The notes below the pieces were generated by a model that did not search any database, was not told the origin of the DNA, and saw only the letters and a list, made by a program, of their open reading frames with translations. Source: Felixounavirus AN17P8. From it: 64,000 nucleotides of DNA. Where the stretch lies: the sequence record OZ035742.1; one strand, written 5' to 3'. A program made the position numbers and the translations under genes. Of this stretch, positions 3,428-58,225 are shown in pieces; within the stretch, counting starts at the first letter, position 1; each line of letters starts with the position of its first letter.

Positions 3428-3684
3428 TTTGTAAATCCTTTCTTAATGAACCAGTTGATAACATTCTTCACAGCTTTATTGCTATGGTAGATTAAGTGCG
3501 GTGTGGGTTGGTATGAACCATAAGCCCAGAATGATAGCTGCTCACCACAACCAACACATGTCGTACTCTCTTCAGATATATGACCATTAACAATCATATG
3601 AACTTCACCTTGTAAATCTGTACACCCACAATGTGGACATCGGATAGGTGTTCCATCAGACTCATAGCAGTGTTCAATTTTCAT
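3424..3684 (-). CDS. small zinc-ribbon protein
   Basis: CPHCGC...CVGCG paired CxxC motifs. Confidence 0.4.
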   Translation of the reverse strand: MKIEHCYESDGTPIRCPHCGCTDLQGEVHMIVNGHISEESTTCVGCGEQLSFWAYGSYQPTPHLIYHSNKAVKNVINWFIKKGFTK

Positions 3685-4200
3685 TTACTTAACCTCAAAA
3701 ACTGGCTCAAGAACCAATATAAAGTCTACACAGTCATCTTCTTCATCCAGAATACCATCAAAGTTCTTAGGAACGAAGTCGAAGAGGCTCATAACAAAAC
3801 AGTCAGAAGTGACCCTGATAGTTCCTCCCATGTTCTCTACAGTTAACACTGTACGACTTTCTTTTACCTCCCTCAGAAGATTACTCACAAAGTCATCTAA
3901 GAAGTACTTCATTAGTGACTTGAAACCTTTAGGGTAATTTGTACCAGAGTATGTTTCAATCTGAGGCACAAGCTTAACATTTATACTAGTCTTTGTTAAG
4001 AATGTGCTAGAGAACATGCTATCAGGTAACTTACAAACAGTCTTTTCAGTACCTTCATGTTCAATCTCAACAAAACCAGCTTCGTCGCCACATGTGACTA
4101 TTTTAAAAGATGCTTCATTCTCATGCTGCGAAGCCATAAACTTTTTAAGCATCACTTTAAGGAAATCTGCATGAGCATCTTGTAAGTAGATATCAATCAT
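3685..4200 (-). CDS. hypothetical protein
   Basis: 171-aa ORF packed in operon; no recognised motif. Confidence 0.4.
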   Translation of the reverse strand: MIDIYLQDAHADFLKVMLKKFMASQHENEASFKIVTCGDEAGFVEIEHEGTEKTVCKLPDSMFSSTFLTKTSINVKLVPQIETYSGTNYPKGFKSLMKYFLDDFVSNLLREVKESRTVLTVENMGGTIRVTSDCFVMSLFDFVPKNFDGILDEEDDCVDFILVLEPVFEVK

Positions 4201-30272: not shown

Positions 30273-30593
30273 ATGAGCAAAGTTTATAACACTCGCAAAT
30301 TACAGATTTTCGTACTGTGTCAGTTTATGGCTAAAGAATACAATTTCTACTATTGTGGCACAGGTTTCATTAGCGACGATGATGGCTCATACCTCCCATT
30401 TAAAGAAGCTGTGAAGCTCTTCAATGAAGAGGAAAGCTCTAAGAAAGATATTGAAAAGGTTAAGCTAACCTACAGCAAGAAAGATAAGAAGATAATCTGC
30501 CTAGATAACTTTGTAAAAGTTACTGGAGAAGCAAAAGAGTTTATGGATGAGAGTGAGATTTCATTCACAAGCATCTTGAAAGTGGCTCAGTAA
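30273..30593 (+). CDS. hypothetical protein
   Basis: 106 aa; terminator follows. Confidence 0.4.
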   Translation: MSKVYNTRKLQIFVLCQFMAKEYNFYYCGTGFISDDDGSYLPFKEAVKLFNEEESSKKDIEKVKLTYSKKDKKIICLDNFVKVTGEAKEFMDESEISFTSILKVAQ

Positions 30594-30606
30594 ACAGATA
30601 CTATAA

Positions 30607-30635
30607 GGGAACTGTAAAGGTTCCCTTTTTATTTT
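30607..30635 (+). terminator. rho-independent terminator
   Basis: GGGAAC-tgtaaag-GTTCCC-TTTTTATTTTT. Confidence 0.6.
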
Positions 30636-30645
30636 TGGAGATAAA

Positions 30646-31161
30646 ATGTATCTGTCAAACCTGAAACGTTCGGCTGCAATGTCAGTTCTAAGACTCAGCT
30701 TTGAGGAACGTCAAGAGTTCATTGACTCCCACCAATACGACCCTTCTAACTCGAATCACATGGTTCTTTGGAATCGTGATAACTTCCGTGAAAGAGCACT
30801 TGTCCGTTATTACCCACACTACACAATAGATAACCTGTATGAATGGTGTGTTGTGAAGAACACTATTGCAACACTGAACAATCTTTGCAGGTATACAGGT
30901 AAGCAAGCATTTACATTAGGCCACCACAAACCTGTTACAAAGGGTGGTGAGCATCACTGCGCAAACTGGTTTATCCAGACTAAACTTGATAACCAGAAGC
31001 AAGGGGATAACCTTCTAAGCACACCTAAGATGACCTATGAAGAGCAAGAGAAATATGTCAAAAATAATATGCCAGATGTGCTTGACAACAACTATACAGA
31101 TTTGGCAATATCTCTCCTGTTGAAGTTCGAGACAGTTTATAGGGCAACTTACAATGGCTAA
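30646..31161 (+). CDS. HNH endonuclease
   Basis: LGHHKPVTKGGEHHCANWFIQTKLDNQKQGD resembles HNH catalytic core. Confidence 0.5.
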   Translation: MYLSNLKRSAAMSVLRLSFEERQEFIDSHQYDPSNSNHMVLWNRDNFRERALVRYYPHYTIDNLYEWCVVKNTIATLNNLCRYTGKQAFTLGHHKPVTKGGEHHCANWFIQTKLDNQKQGDNLLSTPKMTYEEQEKYVKNNMPDVLDNNYTDLAISLLLKFETVYRATYNG

Positions 31162-31432
31162 AGAGAAGTGGGAGATTTTACCATTAGTCAGTGAAGGCGG
31201 TAATGGTTGTGAAATGTACATGATACGTGGTCATGTTCCAGAACCAATTGCACTTGAGATGGTAAACAACTTTACAGATGGCTCTTACAAAGACTTAGGG
31301 GAGCCAACTATAAAGCAGCAATGGGTAAAGCCTGTACCAGACAGCACAGGTAACTGTAGTGTACTTTATCACGTTGTAGACCCTGTAAAATGCAAATCTG
31401 CAATGGCAGTAACAAATGTAACTTTTGATTGA
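31154..31432 (+). CDS. hypothetical protein
   Basis: 92 aa, coupled to neighbours. Confidence 0.35.
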   Translation: MAKEKWEILPLVSEGGNGCEMYMIRGHVPEPIALEMVNNFTDGSYKDLGEPTIKQQWVKPVPDSTGNCSVLYHVVDPVKCKSAMAVTNVTFD

Positions 31433-31443
31433 GAGAGAAAACT

Positions 31444-32325
31444 ATGAAAACATCTATCCGTGTTACAGTTCATTCACCAACTAAAGGGACTCATGAAGAA
31501 GAGTTTAACATCGTCCAATTTCCTTCTGGTGAGATTGGTGGACATTTTTCACCAGAGTTTGTTGACTTTACTGCTTATGCTGCATCATCCATCAACAACG
31601 TGATTATGATTGTAAAGGGTTATGACAAAGACACATTATTTGCTGTGGCACTTGCTAAAGAGGCAATTGATGATTTAGTACCTCATAAGTTTGCTATGAA
31701 GACTGCTATCTTTTACTATTTGCCAAATGCACGTTACGACCGTCACATGTTTAAAGGTGATGCAGCAGCTTTGAAAGTGTTTGCACAACAGGTTAATGCA
31801 ATGGGTTTTGATGCAGTCTGTGCAGTTGACCCTCACAGTTGCGTTCCAGATAACCTGTTTAACTGCTTCCAGAGTATTCCTCAAAAGGAGATTGCAGTTC
31901 ACTATGCAAATGACCCTCTGATTGATTACTTAGTAGCCCCAGATGCAGGTGCAGCTAAGAAGATTGCAGAGACTGCTAAAGAGGTGGATAAACCATATAT
32001 CACAATGTCTAAAGTGCGTAACCTTAAGACTGGTGAGATTACGGGTATGCGAATCCTTGATGATGTTGATTTGACAGATAAAACCGTCATGATTCTGGAT
32101 GATATCTGTGATGGTGGTCGAACCTTCGTAGAAGCAGCAAAACATCTTCGTGAAGCAGGTGCAAAACGTGTGGAACTTTATGTAACACATGGTATCTTCT
32201 CTAAAGATGTTGAAAACCTTCTTGACAATGGTATTGACCATATCTACACTACAAACTCTTTAGGGGAAGCTAAAGACCGTGGATTAGCACATTATGCCCA
32301 AGTTACTGTAGCAAACCTTGATTAG
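31444..32325 (+). CDS. ribose-phosphate pyrophosphokinase (Prs)-like enzyme; candidate ADPR-PP synthetase (Adps-like)
   Basis: Prs-family motifs VDPHS, LVAPDAGAAKKIAE, PRPP-binding loop ILDDICDGGRTFVEAAKHLREAGAKRV; start at ATG 31444 with RBS gagagag. Confidence 0.75.
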   Translation: MKTSIRVTVHSPTKGTHEEEFNIVQFPSGEIGGHFSPEFVDFTAYAASSINNVIMIVKGYDKDTLFAVALAKEAIDDLVPHKFAMKTAIFYYLPNARYDRHMFKGDAAALKVFAQQVNAMGFDAVCAVDPHSCVPDNLFNCFQSIPQKEIAVHYANDPLIDYLVAPDAGAAKKIAETAKEVDKPYITMSKVRNLKTGEITGMRILDDVDLTDKTVMILDDICDGGRTFVEAAKHLREAGAKRVELYVTHGIFSKDVENLLDNGIDHIYTTNSLGEAKDRGLAHYAQVTVANLD

Positions 32326-32333
32326 GTAATAGT

Positions 32334-32825
32334 GTGAATAAGGGTTATTTTGAAAAATACCTAATATATGAACCAGATACAGGTTTATTAATTTGGAGAG
32401 TAACCCTTTGCAGTACCGCTATTGCTGGTAATGTGGCTGGCACAAGGTCTAAGAAGGGTTATATCCAAGTCCAGATAAATAAGAAGAGGTACTATGCACA
32501 TAATATTGCATGGATTATGTCTGGAGGTGAGATACCAAGTGGATATGAGGTAGACCACATAGACCTTGATAAAGCTAATAATAAGTTGGAGAATTTAAGA
32601 CTTAGCACAAAGTCACAAAATCAGAGAAATAGGGGTATACACAAGAATAATAAAACTGGTGTGAAGGGTGTAAGTTTTTGTAAACAAACAGGTCTTTACA
32701 AAGCAAGAGTCATGCTTTACTATAAAGAATACTTTTGTGGAAGATTTAAAACGGTAGAAGAAGCAAAAGAAGCTGTAATTAAAAAGCGAATAGAACTTCA
32801 TGGTGAGTTTGCAAGACATAACTAA
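32334..32825 (+). CDS. HNH homing endonuclease with AP2-like domain
   Basis: GTG start; HIDLDKANNKLENLRL (HNH) plus GVKGVSFCKQTGLYKARV (AP2-like); sits between the two NAD+ salvage genes. Confidence 0.7.
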   Translation: MNKGYFEKYLIYEPDTGLLIWRVTLCSTAIAGNVAGTRSKKGYIQVQINKKRYYAHNIAWIMSGGEIPSGYEVDHIDLDKANNKLENLRLSTKSQNQRNRGIHKNNKTGVKGVSFCKQTGLYKARVMLYYKEYFCGRFKTVEEAKEAVIKKRIELHGEFARHN

Positions 32826-32839
32826 GAGAGAGATAAAAT

Positions 32840-34621
32840 ATGAGTAAGTCACTTTACGCAGTACCAGCAGGTCTTAATGCAGATGCTTACAAGGCATCAC
32901 ATATATATCAGTATCCAGATGCTACGCAATATCTTATGTTGAACCTAACACCACGTAGCGACAAATGGTTTAACAGTCCTTTAGCAATTGATGGTGTAGT
33001 GGCTTTTGGTATTCAACGTTTTGTTAAAGATTACTTGATAGACCACTGGAACGCCACTTTCTTTGAACGTGATAAAAAAGAAGCAATTGACGAAATCTTA
33101 GAAGTTATGAATGGTGTTCTGGGTAAAGATGCTATCGGTCGAGAGCATTGGGAAGCACTTCACGACTTAGGCTATCTACCAGTTGAAGTGTACGCTGTAG
33201 AAGAAGGTACAGTTGTTCCTATGCGTGTCCCAATGATTGTCTTCCAGAACACTGTTTCAGGTTTCCATTGGGTAGCAGGTTATCTGGAAGACGCTTTCTC
33301 TGCTGAGATTTGGAAGGCTTGCACCATTGCAACTATTGCATTGCACTACAAACGTATCTGTAAGAAGTGGGCTGACCTCACTTGCGACAACGACTTGCAT
33401 TTACCTTATCAGTGCCATGACTTTGCTATGCGTGGTATGTCCGGCTTTACTGATGACGCATTCAACGCTGTAGGACACTTAACCAGCTTTAAAGGGACTG
33501 ATAGCTTCCCTGCTGTATACACGGCTAAACGTATCTATGGGCAGACCTATCCAATCTCTGATATTGGAAGCTCTGTACCAGCCACTGAACACTCTGTAAT
33601 GTGTGCAAACATTGCTTGGGAAGGTGGTAACGAGTTGGTTGAAGAAGAAAGACGATTTAAAGGTGAGTTGCAAACCTTCCGTCGTTTCTTAACAGAAACT
33701 TACCCAACTGGTATTGCAAGTATTGTTTCAGATACTTATAACTTCTGGAGAACTGTGTCAGAAATCTTACCAGCACTTCGTAAAGAAATTATGGAACGTG
33801 ACGGTAAGCTGGTAATTCGCCCTGACTCTGGAGACCCTGTACACATTGTCACAGGTTATAAAGCAATCCACTTAGAGTGTGCTAAGAAGGCTTATTATGA
33901 GCACCTAAGCAAGCTGGAAGCTAGTGACACAATGTTGAATGCTGTTCTGAACATGAAGCTTGAAAACATCAACTATGGTATTGCTGGATGGCTACTGTCA
34001 GAAGGCTACGAAATGGTTGTTGACAGAGAAGACTTTGAAGTTGCTGATACAGTGATGTTGAAAAATGCTTATATGGTCGGTTCTGCAAACGTTGTAACAC
34101 GTCCTGTAGCTGAAATTGATGGAGCTATTAAGACACTGTACAACATCTTTGGGGGAACTATTAACTCTAAAGGGTTTAAGGTACTGGATGAACATATCGG
34201 CCTTATCTATGGTGACTCTATCACGCTGGAACGTGCAAACGAAATCCTGAAGCGTCTGTATGAAATGGGTTTTGCAAGCTCTAACGTAGTGTTTGGTGTA
34301 GGCTCTTACACTTACCAGTACATGACTCGTGACACCTTTGCATTTGCTGTCAAAGCAACTCTTGCAAGCATTGGTGGTAAAGAGATTATGCTTGCAAAAG
34401 ACCCTAAAACAGATAGTGGTGTTAAGAAGTCTGCCTTTGGTGGTGTAGCACCTATGTGGGACGGTGATAAGCTGAAAGCTGTAGATGGATATGGATTCCA
34501 GAGTTTTGCAGATGTACTTGACCACCCAGCCTGTGCTTTACGTTTAGTCTTTAGTGACTCTGAGCAGTTCGGTTACACGACTCTTGGTGATATTCGAAAT
34601 AATATTGACAAGCAGCTTTAA
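32840..34621 (+). CDS. nicotinamide phosphoribosyltransferase (NAMPT)-like enzyme; candidate nicotinamide ADPR transferase
   Basis: 593-aa NAMPT-family protein: N-terminal YKASHIYQYP, VFGVGSYTYQYMTRDT region; terminator follows. Confidence 0.8.
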   Translation: MSKSLYAVPAGLNADAYKASHIYQYPDATQYLMLNLTPRSDKWFNSPLAIDGVVAFGIQRFVKDYLIDHWNATFFERDKKEAIDEILEVMNGVLGKDAIGREHWEALHDLGYLPVEVYAVEEGTVVPMRVPMIVFQNTVSGFHWVAGYLEDAFSAEIWKACTIATIALHYKRICKKWADLTCDNDLHLPYQCHDFAMRGMSGFTDDAFNAVGHLTSFKGTDSFPAVYTAKRIYGQTYPISDIGSSVPATEHSVMCANIAWEGGNELVEEERRFKGELQTFRRFLTETYPTGIASIVSDTYNFWRTVSEILPALRKEIMERDGKLVIRPDSGDPVHIVTGYKAIHLECAKKAYYEHLSKLEASDTMLNAVLNMKLENINYGIAGWLLSEGYEMVVDREDFEVADTVMLKNAYMVGSANVVTRPVAEIDGAIKTLYNIFGGTINSKGFKVLDEHIGLIYGDSITLERANEILKRLYEMGFASSNVVFGVGSYTYQYMTRDTFAFAVKATLASIGGKEIMLAKDPKTDSGVKKSAFGGVAPMWDGDKLKAVDGYGFQSFADVLDHPACALRLVFSDSEQFGYTTLGDIRNNIDKQL

Positions 34622-52862: not shown

Positions 52863-53327
52863 TTACTTTGGATATACACTGTCAAGATAAATGTCAGCTT
52901 CCATTCTACGTCTATTTTTCAAGCCGTTTGAAGTTACCTTCTTACCTTTGACTGTAATCTTGTTCCACCACTGCATAGCTTCTGCACAACCTACCTTATT
53001 ACCAGCATTGTGGCGCTTGATAAATGTAGAGTCCTGCATAGCTGTGATACCGATGTTATATGTTTCACTTACAAGTGCATCAAACTCGTTCTGAGAAGTT
53101 GGAACCTTGATGGATTTGTTCACTGCTGCAACGAACTTTTCAACATCTGCGAGAAGATACTGTTCAGCTTGTTCAGCGGTAATCTTCATACCCATCTTAA
53201 CAGGCTTACCAGCAATACGGATAGTCCCATACCCAATTGTGGGGATTCCAGCAGAATCTTCGTAAGCCTCTAACTTAAGACCTTCAAAGAACTTAATAGC
53301 TTCTAAACCTTTCTGTGAGAGTTGCAT
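52863..53327 (-). CDS. endolysin, T4-type lysozyme (GH24-like)
   Basis: LEAIKFFEGLKLEAYEDSAGIPTIGYGT aligns with T4 lysozyme catalytic region (Glu, Asp, Thr triad). Confidence 0.85.
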   Translation of the reverse strand: MQLSQKGLEAIKFFEGLKLEAYEDSAGIPTIGYGTIRIAGKPVKMGMKITAEQAEQYLLADVEKFVAAVNKSIKVPTSQNEFDALVSETYNIGITAMQDSTFIKRHNAGNKVGCAEAMQWWNKITVKGKKVTSNGLKNRRRMEADIYLDSVYPK

Positions 53328-54712
53328 TATGCCTCCCCTGCTGGGTTAACTGTAACTGTTGCCGCATTAGATGTTACAGAGCCACCTGCGCCAGTCACTA
53401 CACAAGTGTAGCTTCCCGCATCAGCAGTGGTTGCACCTTCTTTGGTGTAAGTTGCAGTAGTTGCATCGAGGATGTCTTCCTCACCTTTCTTCCACTGGTA
53501 ACCTGTCGCACCTGTTGCCACAACATTCAGCGTTAATGTTTCACCTTCACTGATTTCTTGATTGGTTGGCTGTTGAGTGATTACCGGAAGTGCATTCACA
53601 GTAACTGTTGCTGCATTAGATGTGACTGTTGTGCCACCTGCACCAGTAACTACACAGGTGTATGAACCAGCATCGGCAGGAGCTACACTAGCTTTCGTGT
53701 AAGTCGCACCAGTTGCACTAGGGATGTTCACATTGTCCTTTTTCCATTGGTAACCTTCTGCGCCTGTAGCCTCAACACTCAGTGTCAAAGAGTTCCCCTC
53801 ATTAACTACCTGATTGGTTGGCTGCTTGGTAATAACTGGTAAAGCATTTACCGTGACAGTTGCAGGGCTAGAAGTAACAGAACCACCTGCACCTGTTACG
53901 ACGCAAGTGTATGAACCTGCATCTGCTGGCAGAGCGCCAGACTTGCTATAGATAGCCTCTGTAGCCGAAGGAATGTCAGAGCCATCTTTCTTCCACTGGT
54001 AACCCGTTGCACCCGTTGCAGTCACTTCCAAGCTGATGTTTCCACCCTCATTGATGGTCTGGCTAGAAGGTTGCTGTGTAATCACAGGTAGTGCATTAAC
54101 AGTAACTGTTGCCGCATCTGAGGTAACGCTTGTCCCAGCCTCTCCAGATACAACACAAGTGTATGAACCAGCATCAGAAGGGGCTACAGACTGTTTTGTG
54201 TAGGTTGCAGATGTGGCGCTAGTGATATCCTCACCATCTTTTTTCCATTGATATCCAGTGGCATTAGTTGCAATAACGCTTAGGTTAAGTGTACCACCTT
54301 CATTTACTGTTTGATTGGTTGGTTGCTGAGTGATTGATGGTGGCTTGATAGCGTCCTTCAACTTAGCATTCAACATTGAGAATGGTTTAACTCTTGCCAG
54401 CCACTCACAATAAACTGTATCAACGTCTTTACCATTGATAATTGCATATTGTAAGTCCATGAAGAAGTCAGAAGTTCTCATTTGAGCACCAACGCTGTAA
54501 AGCAACTCATCACTAAATGGGACTTTGTAGTCCGGTTTGTAGTCAAACTTCTCAACTTCTGCAATATCAGCTTCAGGCCAATACGAACTATAGGTGAGTG
54601 GTAAAATAGCCTCTTGATATGTTCTAAAATCATATCTCTTACCAGCCTTTACATTTGCAATGAAGCCCTTCACAAACTCTTTGAAGTCTGGGTAAGTCTT
54701 TGCTTTAATCAT
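53327..54712 (-). CDS. protein with N-terminal domain plus four tandem Ig-like repeats
   Basis: Four ~83-aa repeats each with QWKKDG and DAGSYTCVVTGAGG (Ig-like Gly-x-Tyr-x-Cys); N-terminal ~125 aa paralogous to adjacent gene. Confidence 0.6.
   Translation of the reverse strand: MIKAKTYPDFKEFVKGFIANVKAGKRYDFRTYQEAILPLTYSSYWPEADIAEVEKFDYKPDYKVPFSDELLYSVGAQMRTSDFFMDLQYAIINGKDVDTVYCEWLARVKPFSMLNAKLKDAIKPPSITQQPTNQTVNEGGTLNLSVIATNATGYQWKKDGEDITSATSATYTKQSVAPSDAGSYTCVVSGEAGTSVTSDAATVTVNALPVITQQPSSQTINEGGNISLEVTATGATGYQWKKDGSDIPSATEAIYSKSGALPADAGSYTCVVTGAGGSVTSSPATVTVNALPVITKQPTNQVVNEGNSLTLSVEATGAEGYQWKKDNVNIPSATGATYTKASVAPADAGSYTCVVTGAGGTTVTSNAATVTVNALPVITQQPTNQEISEGETLTLNVVATGATGYQWKKGEEDILDATTATYTKEGATTADAGSYTCVVTGAGGSVTSNAATVTVNPAGEA
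53346..54340. repeat. four tandem ~249-bp coding repeats (Ig-like domains)
   Basis: Units start near 53346, 53594, 53843, 54094 with shared GTAACTGTTGC...CACCTGCACC strings. Confidence 0.75.
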
Positions 54713-56187: not shown

Positions 56188-56216
56188 TTGACAAAGTACT
56201 TGACAAGGTGTAGGCT
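56188..56216 (+). promoter_or_regulatory. sigma70-like promoter in divergent region (tandem TTGACA boxes)
   Basis: gtTGACAaagtacTTGACAaggtgTAGGCT; near-identical to 12946 element. Confidence 0.4.
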
Positions 56217-56337
56217 TATAAATACTTAGAAGATAACTTAAAAGGTTCCTCTAAAAAGGCTATTTAAACAGATATCTTTCTGGATATCTATCTTTTATCT
56301 TAAAAGCCTTTTAAGAGGTCTTATAAGAGGCATACCA

Positions 56338-56709
56338 ATGAAAAACAGAACAAACAAAGGCCAGTTTAAAAAAGGCCAGTCTGGAAACCCATCTGGAAGA
56401 CCAAAAGGCTCTCGTAACAAAAGCTCACTTGTAAAAGCTCAACTGACCATTGATAATTCTGCTGAGTTTGCTGCAAAGTTGTTTGAAGCGATTGTTACAA
56501 GGGACGCTGCTAAGCTTGCAGAGTTCGGGTTAAACACAGACGACGTAACCATCAAGAGCATGATTGAGGTCGGTAAAACTATCATGACTCACTCAGCGGG
56601 TGAGATGAAAGCAATTGCAGCAGACACTAAGAAGACCCCTGATAACGGTGGTCAGTCTCAGACAGATAACAAACCAACGTTCTCTGCTGTTGCAACCCTC
56701 AAAAAATAA
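56338..56709 (+). CDS. protein with GNPSGRPKG motif
   Basis: N-terminal KKGQSGNPSGRPKGSRNK motif of a recurrent phage protein family; function unknown. Confidence 0.45.
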   Translation: MKNRTNKGQFKKGQSGNPSGRPKGSRNKSSLVKAQLTIDNSAEFAAKLFEAIVTRDAAKLAEFGLNTDDVTIKSMIEVGKTIMTHSAGEMKAIAADTKKTPDNGGQSQTDNKPTFSAVATLKK

Positions 56710-56790
56710 TTTTAAAAGGTGTTGACAGACTCTACAAAGTTGCTCTAAAGTCTGTCACATCAAACAACAAATGAGAGAAGAGAGTAAAAT

Positions 56791-58206
56791 ATGAGCGAGT
56801 TATTTAAACATGCGCACCTTCATGCAGGTCGAACTGAAAATGGTGCTGTAAACCATACTTCATCAATGTCTGCTCTGGTAGACTTTTACAAAGCCGCTGG
56901 CTCAAGCCGTAGCAATGTAGAAATCTTACCAGACCTGTTCTACAAAGCTTTGCATGAGGATGTTGATGTTGCAGTTCGTATTTTGCTTCATATGCGAGAT
57001 GTACGAGAAGGTATGGGTGAGCGTAAAGCCTTCAGAACTGTTTTGCTTCAAGCAATTGAAGACAAAGTTTTAGAGTCTACGCAGGTTCTTCGCATTATGG
57101 ATAAGATTGCAGAACTTGGTCGTTTTGATGACTTCAAAATCTTCGTAGGTACTCGTTTCGAGACAGATGCCTTCAAACATTTAGAAGCAGCATTACTAGA
57201 CCCTGCAACAGCAGGTTTGGCGGCTAAGTGGTTACCACGAGTCAAACCACGTCATAAGCAGTTTGTAAAACGTTTCTGCAAGTTTGCCAACTTGAGTGAG
57301 AAAGAGTACCGCACACTGTTGTCTGCACTATCTGATACAGTTGAGCAAAAAATCTCTGCTAATGAGTTTGGTAAGATTGACTACAGCAAGATTCCTTCAC
57401 TTGCTGCTGCACGTTACCAAAAACTGTTTAACCGTAAAGATGGAGAACGCTACAAAGCTTACATCGAGTCCTTATCAAAGGGTGAGACTAAGATTAATGC
57501 TGGTGCTGTTTACCCATACGATGTGATTAAATCTGTTAAGTATGGTAATGCAGATGTTGCCAATGAGCAGTGGAAAGCACTACCAAACTGGATGGCAGAA
57601 GGTGAAAACATCTTGTGTATGACTGATGTTTCAAGCTCAATGTCTTGGGTGAATCTTGGCTCAATCACCGCCCTTGATATTGGTGTATCGCTTGCCTTGT
57701 ATGTAGCAGAACGCAATACAGGCTGCTTTAAGAATGAGTTAATGGTTTATTCAACAAACCCTCACTTCATTGAACTGAGTGGTGATTTACGAAACCGTCA
57801 TCGTCAGGTGATGCGACACGTTGAATATGGTTCAACTAACTTACAAGCAGCTTTCGACCGCATTCTTGAGACAGGTAAAAGAAACAACTTGACTCAGAAA
57901 GATATGCCAAGTAAGCTTATCATATTCTCTGATATGGAGTTCAATCAGGTTGATGGAGCTAACGGTCGTACAAACTTTGAAGCAATTCAGAGCAAGTACA
58001 AAAAAGCTGGATATGAGATGCCACAACTGGTATTCTGGTACTTAGCAAACCGTAATGGTACTTGCGAAGTGTCCGTTAAGGATAACGGTGTAGCAATGGT
58101 ATCTGGTTTCTCTCCAGCCACTTTAAAAGCTCTGCTTGGTGGTGAGAAGTTTGACCCAATCAGCGTAATGCTCAAAGCAGTAATGATTGACCGTTATATC
58201 TGGTAA
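56791..58206 (+). CDS. vWA-domain protein (MIDAS motif)
   Basis: C-terminal half has DxSxS (TDVSSSM), conserved Thr and acidic residues spaced as in vWA folds; ~220-aa alpha-rich N-terminal domain. Confidence 0.5.
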   Translation: MSELFKHAHLHAGRTENGAVNHTSSMSALVDFYKAAGSSRSNVEILPDLFYKALHEDVDVAVRILLHMRDVREGMGERKAFRTVLLQAIEDKVLESTQVLRIMDKIAELGRFDDFKIFVGTRFETDAFKHLEAALLDPATAGLAAKWLPRVKPRHKQFVKRFCKFANLSEKEYRTLLSALSDTVEQKISANEFGKIDYSKIPSLAAARYQKLFNRKDGERYKAYIESLSKGETKINAGAVYPYDVIKSVKYGNADVANEQWKALPNWMAEGENILCMTDVSSSMSWVNLGSITALDIGVSLALYVAERNTGCFKNELMVYSTNPHFIELSGDLRNRHRQVMRHVEYGSTNLQAAFDRILETGKRNNLTQKDMPSKLIIFSDMEFNQVDGANGRTNFEAIQSKYKKAGYEMPQLVFWYLANRNGTCEVSVKDNGVAMVSGFSPATLKALLGGEKFDPISVMLKAVMIDRYIW

Positions 58207-58225
58207 AAAAGTTTTAAAAAGGGTA

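What the first reader, a model, noticed from the sequence alone, without database searches (positions are those of the whole stretch)
56338..58206. GNPSGRPKG-motif protein and vWA-domain protein at the head of the tRNA cluster
A 123-aa protein carrying the KKGQSGNPSGRPKGSRNK motif is followed by a 471-aa protein whose C-terminal half is a vWA domain with an intact MIDAS DxSxS motif. vWA/MIDAS proteins usually form metal-dependent complexes, and some RNA-chaperone families use this fold. The promoters driving the tRNA cluster lie immediately downstream, so this protein may act with the tRNAs or the structured spacer RNAs.
Basis: inference. Interest (0 to 1): 0.45.

Follow-up and report, generated by a model that had tools for sequence, protein, structure and literature searches.

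The report
Phage Ro60-like protein with Y-like RNAs
The 471-aa "vWA protein" of this Felix O1-type phage is predicted to be a Ro60-like RNA-binding ring, and the spacers between the first tRNAs just downstream encode four small RNAs that look like its Y-RNA partners and closely resemble the enigmatic Class I RNAs of social amoebae.

Summary
Both ORFs are real. The window is a Felixounavirus (97% identical to wV8). ORF 56338-56709 is a DUF5681 protein found only in Ounavirinae; it is not a conserved partner of the second gene.

New here: four small RNA modules lie downstream among the first tRNAs (58546-59382). Each has a terminal helix, a single-stranded UUACAGCAA motif and a 3' CUG. The fourth carries a circularly permuted tRNA-like domain of YrlA type.

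A covariance model of the module finds 71 matches in 79 diverse phage loci, all on the strand of the Ro-like gene and mostly beside it. It finds none in T5's tRNA region. It finds none in the tRNA cluster of Erwinia phage phiEa104, an Ounavirinae that lacks the Ro-like gene.

The modules match Rfam's Dictyostelium Class I RNA family in architecture and motif. That family has no known function and was reported as unique to Dictyostelia.

Most likely this is a phage Ro60-like/Y-like RNA particle tied to tRNA metabolism. RNA binding and function remain untested.

The parts
56338..56709 (+). 123-aa DUF5681 protein with a basic N-terminal KKGQSGNPSGRPKGSRNK motif. A neighbour specific to Ounavirinae, not part of the conserved Ro-like/RNA unit.
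   Evidence: ORF. Pfam DUF5681 E 2e-14 and phrog_4114. Homologues in only 296 phage records, all Ounavirinae-type. Absent next to the Ro-like gene in 74 other viral loci. Retained in phiEa104, which lacks the Ro-like gene.
56722..56751 (+). Sigma-70-like promoter site upstream of the 471-aa ORF (TTGACA-18-TAAAGT).
   Evidence: Consensus scan, 10 of 12 matches. Pattern match only.
56791..58206 (+). 471-aa Ro60-like protein (DUF2828 + DUF7788). An alpha-helical repeat part (about aa 1-265, nt 56791-57585) is closed by a vWA domain (about aa 270-460, nt 57598-58170).
57625..57639 (+). MIDAS DxSxS motif (D279 V S281 S S283). T349 and D381 complete the site.
   Evidence: Read directly from the sequence. 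All five residues are invariant in 50 homologues.
58226..58346 (+). Two sigma-70-like promoter sites (58226-58254 and 58317-58346) ahead of tRNA-Pro. The first overlaps a 12-bp palindrome at 58218-58249.
   Evidence: Duplicated AAAAA..TTGACAA repeat D7.
58546..58612 (+). Y-like / Class-I-like RNA module Y1, between tRNA-Glu and tRNA-Met. Helix AGACCAA/TTGGTCT, motif UUACAGCAA, 3' UGG.
   Evidence: Repeat family D4. CM R1 44.5 bits, E 6e-8. Rfam RF01414 full-length match, 19.7 bits. The ends are almost invariant (only A-U to G-U changes in the helix) while the interior diverges among 11 Ounavirinae.
58713..58771 (+). Module Y2, between tRNA-Met and tRNA-Asn. Helix AGACCGT/ACGGTCT, motif UUACAGCAA.
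   Evidence: D4. R1 50.7 bits, E 1.4e-9. RF01414 20.5 bits.
59169..59238 (+). Module Y3, in the 430-nt spacer after tRNA-Asp. Helix AGACCAA/TTGGTCT, motif AUUCAGCAA.
   Evidence: D4. R1 36.1 bits, E 1e-5. The helix is present in the MFE of the spacer.
59258..59382 (+). Module Y4, a YrlA-type RNA. It has the same terminal helix (AGACCGUU/AACGGUCU) and UUACAGCAA motif, enclosing a circularly permuted tRNA-like domain: V arm, T arm (59307-59323), acceptor stem closed by a 4-nt loop (59324-59341), and D arm.
   Evidence: The unconstrained MFE gives this fold (z -4.05 for the whole spacer). The acceptor hairpin is 100% paired, with 3 of 7 pairs changed on both sides among 11 Ounavirinae. Elements of the same architecture in LeBron and Klebsiella phage FBKp34 match Rfam YrlA end to end at 39.8 and 39.6 bits, E about 3e-5. 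It is the only hit of the permuted-element descriptor in the 64-kb window.
58373..63585 (+). Cluster of 26 tRNA genes in which the four modules are embedded. The modules are presumably co-transcribed and released by tRNA-processing nucleases (inferred).
   Evidence: ARAGORN and Rfam.

Best explanation
The 471-aa gene encodes a Ro60-like ring protein: a helical-repeat domain closed by a vWA/MIDAS domain, of the DUF2828/DUF7788 family. It most likely assembles into ribonucleoprotein particles with four small RNAs encoded 340-1180 nt downstream on the same strand, in the spacers between the first tRNAs. Three are about 60-70 nt (Y1-Y3). One is about 125 nt and holds a circularly permuted tRNA-like domain like bacterial YrlA (Y4). 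All four share a 7-8-bp helix joining the 5' and 3' ends, a single-stranded UUACAGCAA motif next to the 5' strand, an A/U-rich variable interior and a 3' (C)UG. This is the Y-RNA layout, in which a terminal stem flanks a motif-bearing loop that Ro60 contacts. Shown here: the predicted fold, the RNA family and its covariation, and their co-occurrence and co-absence. Inferred: that the protein binds the motif and helix. Also inferred: that the RNAs are cut out of the tRNA precursor transcripts by RNase P, RNase Z or RNase E. Also inferred: that, as in Rsr-Y RNA-PNPase and phiLo Ro60-Yrl-PNPase complexes, the particle recruits or restrains a host exoribonuclease or RNA-repair enzyme. That activity would protect or quality-control tRNAs and other structured RNAs during infection, possibly against tRNA-cleaving host defences. 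The upstream 123-aa DUF5681 protein is an independent early gene of unknown function with a basic, probably nucleic-acid-binding, N-terminus.

For: RNA family in the window. There are four copies of CAGAAGACCrwwTwCAGCAA, each with a matching 3' strand.

RNA family elsewhere. In an alignment of 38 modules from diverse phages, the 7-bp helix is 98.1% paired and all 7 pairs change on both sides. There are 102 doubly changed cells against 28.7+-4.1 in shuffles, and slid controls give 33-45% pairing.

Association with the gene. CM R1 finds 71 matches at E<=0.01 in 967 kb, all on the strand of the Ro-like gene. 47 of 79 sources have at least one match, about half the matches are not seed sequences, and most lie within a few hundred nt of the gene. 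A descriptor scan gives 110 same-strand against 21 opposite-strand modules within 1.5 kb, and 9 against 9 inside the gene.

Reciprocal test. Of 120 viral loci found by an RNA pattern alone, 17 of the 52 with a full permuted element also hold the gene in the short stretch held, against 4 of 68 without one.

Controls. T5's 30-kb region with 25 tRNA genes gives no match at E<=1. Erwinia phage phiEa104, of the same subfamily and gene order, has DUF5681 and a cluster of 31 annotated tRNA features. It has no Ro-like gene in the whole genome, and no module in its tRNA cluster or on that strand. The only R1 match at E<=5 is a weak opposite-strand one (17.7 bits, E 0.077) inside a baseplate gene.

Context. 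Every tRNA found near the gene in 80 viral loci is on its strand, and 25 of 80 loci have a tRNA within 2 kb. The gene abuts tRNA clusters in Klebsiella, Listeria and Campylobacter phages. In the Listeria phage, RtcB and an RNA ligase lie downstream.

Precedent. Y RNAs lie within 4 kb of Ro60 on the same strand (PMC4201824). A phage Ro60 binds phage Yrl RNAs and host PNPase (PMC12135203).
Against: No experiment shows that the RNAs are expressed or stable, or that they bind the protein. At sequence level the protein does not match Pfam TROVE or any PDB chain. The window's Y4 does not reach Rfam YrlA even at E<=10, and the motif differs from the GNCGAA/CGAA of known Y RNAs. The CM seeds were picked by a descriptor that demands pairing, so the covariation count on A5 is partly circular. 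The strand bias could owe something to purine skew. 32 of 79 sources had no CM match. Many permuted elements sit in jumbo-phage stretches where no Ro-like gene was seen, though the stretches held were short. No conserved protein partner such as PNPase or RtcB is encoded near the gene in most phages, so the effector is a guess. The background rate of tRNA adjacency was not measured.
Confidence: 0.7

Rival explanations
1. The repeated spacer elements are processing or expression signals of the tRNA cluster, unrelated to the neighbouring protein. They could be RNase E/P/Z guide structures, promoter-associated repeats or attenuators. The protein would then be a vWA/MIDAS adaptor for some protein complex.
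For: The modules lie exactly between tRNA genes. The 5' part of Y2 overlaps a weak promoter-like match, TTTACA-16-AATATT. vWA proteins are mostly protein-protein adaptors, and MoxR-vWA pairs act in phage assembly (PMC7824862).
Against: In Listeria, Campylobacter and mycobacterial phages, and in many metagenomic phages, the modules sit directly beside the gene even where no tRNA is adjacent. T5's and phiEa104's large tRNA clusters lack them. What is conserved is a covarying helix plus CAGCAA, not promoter hexamers. The whole protein, not only the vWA domain, matches Ro60.
Confidence: 0.12
2. Y4 is merely a decayed or rearranged tRNA pseudogene, Y1-Y3 are remnants of duplications, and none of them has a function.
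For: One phage record annotates Y4 as an odd 129-nt 'tRNA-Thr'. Phage tRNA clusters are full of pseudo-tRNAs. The window has a tRNA-fragment-like insert at 58864-58932.
Against: The permuted order (T arm, capped acceptor hairpin, D arm) recurs with different sequences in at least 15 unrelated viral loci, always with a terminal helix and CAGCAA motif. The acceptor hairpin is kept by compensatory changes. Two relatives match Rfam YrlA end to end at E about 3e-5. The ends of Y1-Y3 are almost invariant while their interiors diverge.
Confidence: 0.05
3. The Ro60-like protein works without dedicated Y RNAs. It would act directly on misfolded or damaged phage or host tRNAs threaded through its ring, and the modules would be bound by another factor.
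For: Ro60 binds misfolded RNAs through its central hole independently of Y RNA (PMC12135203 introduction). The gene is next to tRNA genes in many phages. 32 of 79 sources show no module.
Against: Gene and modules are lost together in phiEa104 while its tRNA cluster remains. The modules cluster tightly beside the gene.
Confidence: 0.13

Closest known systems
Bacterial Ro60 (Rsr) with Y RNAs YrlA/YrlB (Rfam RF02553); the Rsr-Y RNA-PNPase 'RYPER' machine
   Same: Predicted ring of helical repeats closed by a vWA/MIDAS domain. Small RNAs are encoded within 4 kb on the same strand. One long RNA holds a permuted tRNA-like domain (V, T, capped acceptor, D), alongside shorter RNAs that lack it. A terminal stem flanks a conserved single-stranded motif near the 5' end (PMC4201824; bioRxiv 10.1101/312249).
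   Different: No sequence-level match to TROVE. The motif is UUACAGCAA, not GNCGAA. The RNAs are embedded in a tRNA array rather than an rsr-rtcBA operon. The window's Y4 is not detected by RF02553.
Thermus phage phiLo Ro60 with Yrl1/Yrl2 (PDB 9kop/9l5y; PMC12135203)
   Different: phiLo Ro60 is a recognisable TROVE protein whose RNAs carry the CGAA motif. Only 14-17% identity to the protein studied here.
'Ro-like RNA binding protein' of actinobacteriophages (e.g. LeBron gp53) and PHROG 850 / RefSeq 'RNA-binding protein'
   Same: The same protein family: 31% identity over 98% of the length. A YrlA-like RNA plus a second module sit in the 360-nt gap after LeBron gp53. gp53 is moderately toxic when overexpressed (PMC13148394).
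   Different: None in kind. The window's protein is a new member of this annotated family. I found no paper describing the RNA partners of this family in the searchable library.
Class I RNAs of dictyostelid social amoebae (Rfam RF01414; PMC7919456)
   Same: [quoted passage not shown] Both have an A/U-rich variable interior with an A-rich tract before the 3' strand, a 3' C-UG tail, and many paralogous copies. Compare DdR-28 (GTTGAC-CTTACAGCAA...GTCAAC-TG) with window Y2 (GACCGU-UUACAGCAA...ACGGUC-UG). RF01414 aligns Y1, Y2 and Y4 end to end. A phage-derived HMM finds 16 of 22 amoebal RNAs at E<1 against 0 of 1100 shuffles.
   Different: The scores are below the Rfam gathering score (20.5, 19.7 and 13.2 bits against 41.5). 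The amoebal RNAs are separate genes with their own upstream promoter element (DUSE), whereas the phage RNAs sit in tRNA spacers. The amoebal family was reported as unique to Dictyostelia, with an RRM protein (Rnp1A) as its known binder. Whether Dictyostelia encode a DUF2828 protein could not be checked here.
Stable 'tRNA-like' RNAs of phage T5 (RNA1, RNA2, RNA3, RNAI, RNAIII...)
   Same: Small stable RNAs of unknown function interspersed in a phage tRNA cluster (annotation).
   Different: Not matched by the module CM at E<=1. No T5-type record was seen among the 709 phage records matching the Ro-like protein: the 120 Escherichia records equal the number of Felix-type ones.

Membership tests
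Ro60 / TROVE ring proteins | Closed ring of antiparallel alpha-helical (HEAT-like) repeats capped by a vWA domain | tested here: met
Ro60 / TROVE ring proteins | Sequence match to the Pfam TROVE domain (PF05731) or to solved Ro60 chains | tested here: not met
   Pfam at E<=0.1 returns only DUF2828 and DUF7788. phmmer and a 50-sequence profile against PDB find no Ro60.
Ro60 / TROVE ring proteins | vWA domain with a MIDAS site (DxSxS...T...D) | tested here: met
   D279, S281, S283, T349 and D381 are invariant in 50 homologues.
Ro60 / TROVE ring proteins | Dedicated Y RNA(s) encoded nearby on the same strand | tested here: met
   Four modules lie 340-1180 nt downstream. The association holds across phages, with T5 and phiEa104 as controls.
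Ro60 / TROVE ring proteins | Demonstrated binding of Y RNA and of misfolded RNA 3' ends | not testable with these tools
   Needs EMSA, CLIP or a structure.
YrlA Y RNA (Rfam RF02553) | Module order: 5' motif, V arm, T arm, closed acceptor stem, D arm, 3' strand (a permuted tRNA-like domain) | tested here: met
   MFE of Y4. Compensatory changes in the acceptor hairpin. The order matches the descriptions in PMC4201824 and 10.1101/312249.
YrlA Y RNA (Rfam RF02553) | Reaches the Rfam gathering score (69 bits) | tested here: not met
   No RF02553 match for the window at E<=10. Relatives in LeBron and FBKp34 score 39.8 and 39.6 bits.
YrlA Y RNA (Rfam RF02553) | GNCGAA(N0-1)G motif near the 5' end | tested here: not met
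   The motif is UUACAGCAA in all four modules and across phages.
Dictyostelid Class I RNA (Rfam RF01414) | Short helix joining the 5' and 3' ends, the 11-nt motif CCUUACAGCAA after the 5' strand, and a 3' CUGU | tested here: met
   Architecture met. Nine of the 11 motif positions are identical in Y1, Y2 and Y4, including all five positions reported as most conserved (U3, C6, C9, A10, A11). The 3' end reads ...C-UG (PMC7919456).
Dictyostelid Class I RNA (Rfam RF01414) | Reaches the Rfam gathering score (41.5 bits) | tested here: not met
   20.5, 19.7 and 13.2 bits. So this is 'looks and may work like', not a curated member.
Dictyostelid Class I RNA (Rfam RF01414) | Own upstream promoter element (DUSE) about 60 nt before the gene, in a dictyostelid genome | tested here: not met
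   The phage copies lie in tRNA spacers of a phage genome.
DUF5681 (Pfam PF18932) | Pfam gathering score | tested here: met
   54.3 bits against 27.5 for the 123-aa protein.
DUF2828 / DUF7788 (Pfam PF11443, PF25043) | Pfam gathering scores | tested here: met
   102.3 bits against 29, and 148.5 bits against 27.1.

The most novel reading that the evidence does not exclude
The phage modules and the Class I RNAs of Dictyostelia are one RNA family, whose common partner is a DUF2828-type Ro60-like protein. Class I RNAs would then be the amoebal equivalent of Y RNAs. DDB_G0281243 would be the prime candidate for that partner: it is the protein of unknown function pulled down with Class I RNA DdR-21 (bioRxiv 10.1101/2020.04.05.026054). 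[quoted passage not shown] It would also give a testable function to both the RNAs and the DUF2828 family, which Pfam describes as found in eukaryotes and viruses.
Probability: 0.3. Interest if true: 0.9.

Novelty: new variant of a known kind. Interest (0 to 1): 0.78.

Why it matters
Ro60-Y RNA particles are known from animals, some bacteria and a few phages, but their roles remain poorly understood. This analysis gives three things.

1. A large, sequence-divergent branch of Ro60-like proteins is present in 709 of 50,697 phage genome records. These include Felix O1-, KVP40-, A511- and LeBron-type phages and Campylobacter phages used in typing and biocontrol.

2. That branch appears to have its own family of partner RNAs, hidden in tRNA spacers. 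These RNAs are currently unannotated, or mis-annotated as opposite-strand ORFs or odd tRNAs.

3. The RNAs are nearly indistinguishable in design from Dictyostelium Class I RNAs, abundant developmental RNAs of unknown mechanism that were reported to be unique to Dictyostelia.

If the link holds, phage genetics and biochemistry become a simple route to the function of both. The constant proximity to phage tRNA genes, and in some phages to RtcB and RNA ligase, also points to a role in the contest over tRNA integrity between phages and host defences.

Tried and rejected
- Sequence searches of the 471-aa protein and of a 50-sequence profile against PDB chains found nothing relevant. NCBIfam had no model.
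- Rfam at gathering thresholds found only tRNAs in the window. I at first overlooked a weak Class I RNA match in the E-value scan.
- I looked for a conserved protein partner by clustering all ORFs in 80 viral loci. Only lineage-specific neighbours emerged, such as ClpP, DnaJ, RNase HII and NUDIX in one marine lineage.
- I rejected the DUF5681 protein as a partner.
- MAFFT alignments of the long permuted elements (A2, A3) were mis-registered in the acceptor region, so I did not use them for a model.
- Some 'orphan T-arm' hits whose acceptor loops contain CCA may be tandem tRNAs rather than permuted elements. The single T5 hit is two adjacent tRNA-Ser genes.
- Descriptor hits with 6-bp helices are at chance level by my estimate, so I did not count them as evidence.
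- The afdb50 fold library was unavailable.
- Attempts to learn what DDB_G0281243 is all failed: a paper search, the supplements of PMC7919456 and its preprint, motif strings in the truncated proteome files, and PubMed id 21941123.
- I ran no further search on eukaryotic DUF2828 homologues, because only the best 120 hits are listed and thousands of phage proteins rank first.
Full report
**Observation.** The window is a Felix O1-type myovirus. Positions 56200-58400 are 97% identical to Escherichia phage wV8 and about 250 other Felixounavirus records. The ORF listing returns exactly the two ORFs described: 56338-56709 (123 aa) and 56791-58206 (471 aa), both on the + strand. ARAGORN finds 26 tRNA genes on the same strand from 58373 to 63585. 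Sigma-70-like sites lie before the large ORF (56722-56751) and twice between it and tRNA-Pro (58226-58254, 58317-58346). That scan is barely above its shuffled expectation, so these sites are suggestive only. The small protein passes Pfam DUF5681. The large one passes DUF2828 and DUF7788, and belongs to PHROG 850, 'RNA-binding protein'. RefSeq uses the same name for wV8 gp47. The MIDAS residues D279, S281, S283, T349 and D381 are invariant in 50 homologues that are 42-89% identical to the window protein.

**What the large protein is.** Sequence methods do not connect it to any solved structure, or to Pfam TROVE at E<=0.1. An AlphaFold2 model built on the 50-sequence alignment is confident (pLDDT 89.9, pTM 0.89). 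It has helices through residue about 263, followed by an alpha/beta domain.
- Foldseek against the PDB returns Ro60 proteins as its 11 best matches: Xenopus, human, Deinococcus Rsr and Thermus phage phiLo. E-values are 2e-8 to 7e-7 over 507-555 alignment columns. Only then come isolated vWA domains, at E>=1e-3.

The protein therefore has the Ro60 architecture, a helical-repeat ring closed by a vWA domain. By sequence it belongs to a separate family.

That family is large. It has more than 2,500 hits in the protein collection and occurs in 709 of 50,697 phage records. These include 95 mycobacteriophages, where it is already annotated 'Ro-like RNA binding protein'. Vibrio, Listeria, Staphylococcus, Campylobacter, Enterococcus and Bacillus phages also carry it. 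The protein identification is thus a new member of an annotated kind, not a discovery.

**Context.** I fetched 80 viral loci with relatives.
- 32 hold tRNA genes within 6 kb, 25 within 2 kb, and every tRNA is on the gene's strand.
- In annotated genomes the gene abuts tRNA clusters in Klebsiella phage FBKp34, Listeria phage LP-083-2 and Campylobacter phage CP81. In the Listeria phage an RtcB-like ligase, an RNA ligase and an HD phosphohydrolase lie downstream.
- No protein neighbour is conserved across lineages.
- The DUF5681 protein accompanies the gene only in Ounavirinae-type loci. Its homologues are confined to 296 Ounavirinae-type records.

**The RNAs.** Scanning the 80 loci for perfect T-arm motifs gave 300 on the gene strand and none opposite. 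About 55 lay outside any called tRNA or tmRNA. In the window such an orphan sits at 59307-59323, in the 430-nt tRNA-free spacer.

The sequence there reads, in order: T arm, a 7-bp acceptor stem closed by a 4-nt loop, and a D arm. All of this is enclosed by an 8-bp helix, AGACCGUU/AACGGUCU. The spacer folds with z = -4.05. This is the layout of bacterial YrlA Y RNAs, which resemble circularly permuted tRNAs with a closed acceptor stem (PMC4201824; bioRxiv 10.1101/312249).

At least 15 further elements from unrelated viral loci show the same layout. Each has a different, perfectly complementary terminal helix and a conserved YCAGCAA after its 5' strand. Two such elements match Rfam YrlA end to end at 39.8 and 39.6 bits (E about 3e-5, below the gathering score of 69). 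One lies in mycobacteriophage LeBron and one in Klebsiella phage FBKp34.

Among 11 Ounavirinae the acceptor hairpin stays 100% paired while 3 of its 7 pairs change on both sides. In Citrobacter phage Michonne most of the stem (4 of its 7 pairs) and the loop are different, yet all seven pairs still form.

The same 5' module, CAGAAGACCrwwTwCAGCAA, occurs four times in the window (repeat finder family D4). Each copy has a matching 3' strand followed by GG. This defines three short modules and the long one:

| Module | Coordinates |
|---|---|
| Y1 | 58546-58612 |
| Y2 | 58713-58771 |
| Y3 | 59169-59238 |
| Y4 (long, tRNA-like) | 59258-59382 |

In the Ounavirinae alignment the helix strands, motif and 3' tail are almost invariant, with only A-U to G-U changes in the helices. 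The interiors diverge freely.

Similar short modules flank the Ro-like gene in Listeria, Campylobacter, Klebsiella and mycobacterial phages. The consensus over 112 same-strand modules near the gene is: (A)AG-R-NNNN, U-U/A-A/U, CAGCAA, an A/U-rich stretch of about 25-45 nt, NNNN-Y-CU, G.

**Is the association real?**
- A descriptor (motif plus a helix of at least 7 bp) finds 110 same-strand against 21 opposite-strand modules within 1.5 kb of the gene. Inside the gene the count is 9 against 9.
- A MAFFT alignment of 38 short modules shows the helix 98.1% paired, with every pair changed on both sides. There are 102 doubly changed cells against 28.7+-4.1 in shuffles, and slid registers give 33-45% pairing. 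The seeds were chosen for pairing, so this count is partly circular.
- A covariance model built from that alignment (R1) gives 71 matches at E<=0.01 in 79 sources (967 kb, both strands). All are on the gene's strand and 47 sources have at least one. About half of the matches are not seeds, and most lie within a few hundred nt of the gene. In the 64-kb window it hits only Y1, Y2 and Y3.
- Reciprocally, I scanned the viral collection with an RNA pattern alone. Of the 52 loci with a complete permuted element, 17 also held the gene in the short stretch available. Of the 68 loci without one, 4 did.
- Negative control: the 30-kb region of T5 that holds its 25 tRNA genes, with its known stable RNAs, gives no match at E<=1.
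- Natural experiment: Erwinia phage phiEa104 belongs to the same subfamily and has the same gene order, with DUF5681 followed by a cluster of 31 annotated tRNA features. It has no Ro-like gene anywhere; tblastn with 50 diverse queries gives a best E of 0.011 over 92 residues. It has no module in its tRNA cluster. The only R1 match at E<=5 is one opposite-strand hit of 17.7 bits inside a baseplate gene.

Gene and RNAs therefore come and go together, independently of both DUF5681 and the tRNA cluster.

**The unexpected resemblance.** Rfam's model for Dictyostelium Class I RNAs (RF01414) aligns Y2, Y1 and Y4 end to end at 20.5, 19.7 and 13.2 bits. This is below its gathering score of 41.5.

Class I RNAs are 42-65 nt. 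They have a 6-bp helix joining the ends, an 11-nt motif CCUUACAGCAA next to the 5' strand, a variable interior and a 3' CUGU. They were reported to be unique to Dictyostelia, and their mechanism is unknown. The paper mentions neither Ro60 nor Y RNA (PMC7919456).

Actual sequences make the point:
- DdR-28 is GTTGAC-CTTACAGCAA...GTCAAC-TG.
- A D. lacteum candidate begins GGUUCC-UUUACAGCAA.
- A marine phage module reads GGUUCC-UUACAGCAA...GGAACC-UG.
- Window Y2 reads GACCGU-UUACAGCAA...ACGGUC-UG.

A sequence-only HMM built from the phage alignment finds 16 of 22 amoebal RNAs at E<1, against 0 of 1,100 shuffles.

The preprint version of the amoeba paper lists the four proteins pulled down with Class I RNA DdR-21: GuaB, NdkC, the RRM protein CIBP/Rnp1A, and DDB_G0281243, of unknown function. 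By my recollection of its Pfam entry, DUF2828 is described there as a family of eukaryotes and viruses. I could not determine whether DDB_G0281243, or any dictyostelid protein, carries DUF2828. The shared-partner idea is therefore a hypothesis, not a result.

**Mechanism.** Shown: the predicted Ro60 fold, the RNA family, its structure and its linkage to the gene. Inferred by analogy with Ro60-Y RNA complexes: the protein binds the terminal helix and motif of Y1-Y4. The RNAs would be released from tRNA precursor transcripts. The particle would then tether or restrain a host exoribonuclease or repair enzyme, as Rsr-Y RNA does with PNPase and as phiLo Ro60-Yrl does with Thermus PNPase (PMC4201824, PMC12135203). 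Repeated proximity to tRNA genes, and in one lineage to RtcB and RNA ligase, suggests that the substrate world is tRNA. I put about 0.7 on the RNP itself and far less on any specific effector.

**Verdict.** The small DUF5681 protein is the exception: it is an unrelated, lineage-specific neighbour. The protein is a new member of a known, already annotated family. In the searchable literature I found no description of the partner RNAs, their breadth across phages, or their likeness to Class I RNAs. Overall this is a new variant of the Ro60-Y RNA kind, of high interest pending experiments.

Noticed in passing
L206 (Listeria phage LP-083-2, NC_024383) 3429-3980, + strand: A ROOL-like large RNA (Rfam RF03087, 87.4 bits, E 3e-16, just below the gathering score of 99.1). 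It lies between the tRNA cluster and the Ro-like gene, about 1 kb upstream of the gene. It is unannotated in the record.
   Followed up: no
L024 11822-12178, L029 12119-12481, L030 12694-13069: tmRNA genes above the Rfam gathering score lie about 5 kb downstream of the Ro-like gene on the same strand, in a marine phage lineage. Its neighbours include ClpP, DnaJ, RNase HII and NUDIX genes.
   Followed up: partly
window 59104-59533; wV8 record NC_012749 26775-27032; ASO1B record MZ726792 27251-27379; FBKp34 record MW394390 106110-106223: Public annotations mislabel the RNA modules. wV8 places a minus-strand hypothetical CDS (gp48) over Y3/Y4. ASO1B calls Y4 a 129-nt 'tRNA-Thr-GGT'. FBKp34 lists a 114-nt 'tRNA-Asp' that contains a UUACAGCAU motif.
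   Followed up: partly
window 58864-58932: A stretch of about 60 nt between tRNA-Asn and tRNA-Tyr is present in the window, in L002 and in Mooglevirus phages, but absent from wV8 and others. It contains a degenerate T-arm-like stretch (GGTGCAAGTCC), perhaps a tRNA remnant.
   Followed up: no
L005 and L006, alignment A4 columns about 494-960: An insertion of about 450 nt that looks protein-coding follows tRNA-Tyr in two Felixounavirus contigs. The adjoining tRNA-Asp is replaced by a divergent copy. This looks like a mobile-gene (homing endonuclease type) insertion; its translation was not checked.
   Followed up: no
window 53327-54712, - strand: A 461-aa ORF with four near-identical repeats of about 90 aa (...TGYQWKKDGxDIxSATxATYTK...AGSYTCVVxG...), resembling immunoglobulin-like domains. 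Annotated 'tail protein' in wV8.
   Followed up: no
window 58218-58249 and 58205-58232 / 58296-58323: A 12-bp palindrome overlaps the -35 of the first promoter-like site after the Ro-like gene. The AAAAA..TTGACAA block is duplicated 91 nt apart. This could be a terminator/promoter or operator arrangement.
   Followed up: no
L105, L134, L125, L185 (jumbo-phage contigs of 165-425 kb): Several copies (2-4) of the permuted tRNA-like element occur per short stretch, without a Ro-like gene in the DNA held. Either the gene lies elsewhere in these large genomes or the elements can exist without it.
   Followed up: no
L212 (phage T5, NC_005859) 30284-33949 of the record: T5's experimentally known stable RNAs of unknown function (RNAI, RNAIII, RNA1, RNA2, RNA3...) sit in its tRNA cluster. 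They are not matched by the module model, so they may be a different family of tRNA-cluster RNAs.
   Followed up: partly
L204 (Vibrio phage ValKK3) 5964-6089: In this KVP40-type phage no tRNA is near the Ro-like gene. A UUACAGCAA motif lies 30 nt before the start codon, so a module may overlap the 5' end of the mRNA. The next gene is a DUF458 protein.
   Followed up: no
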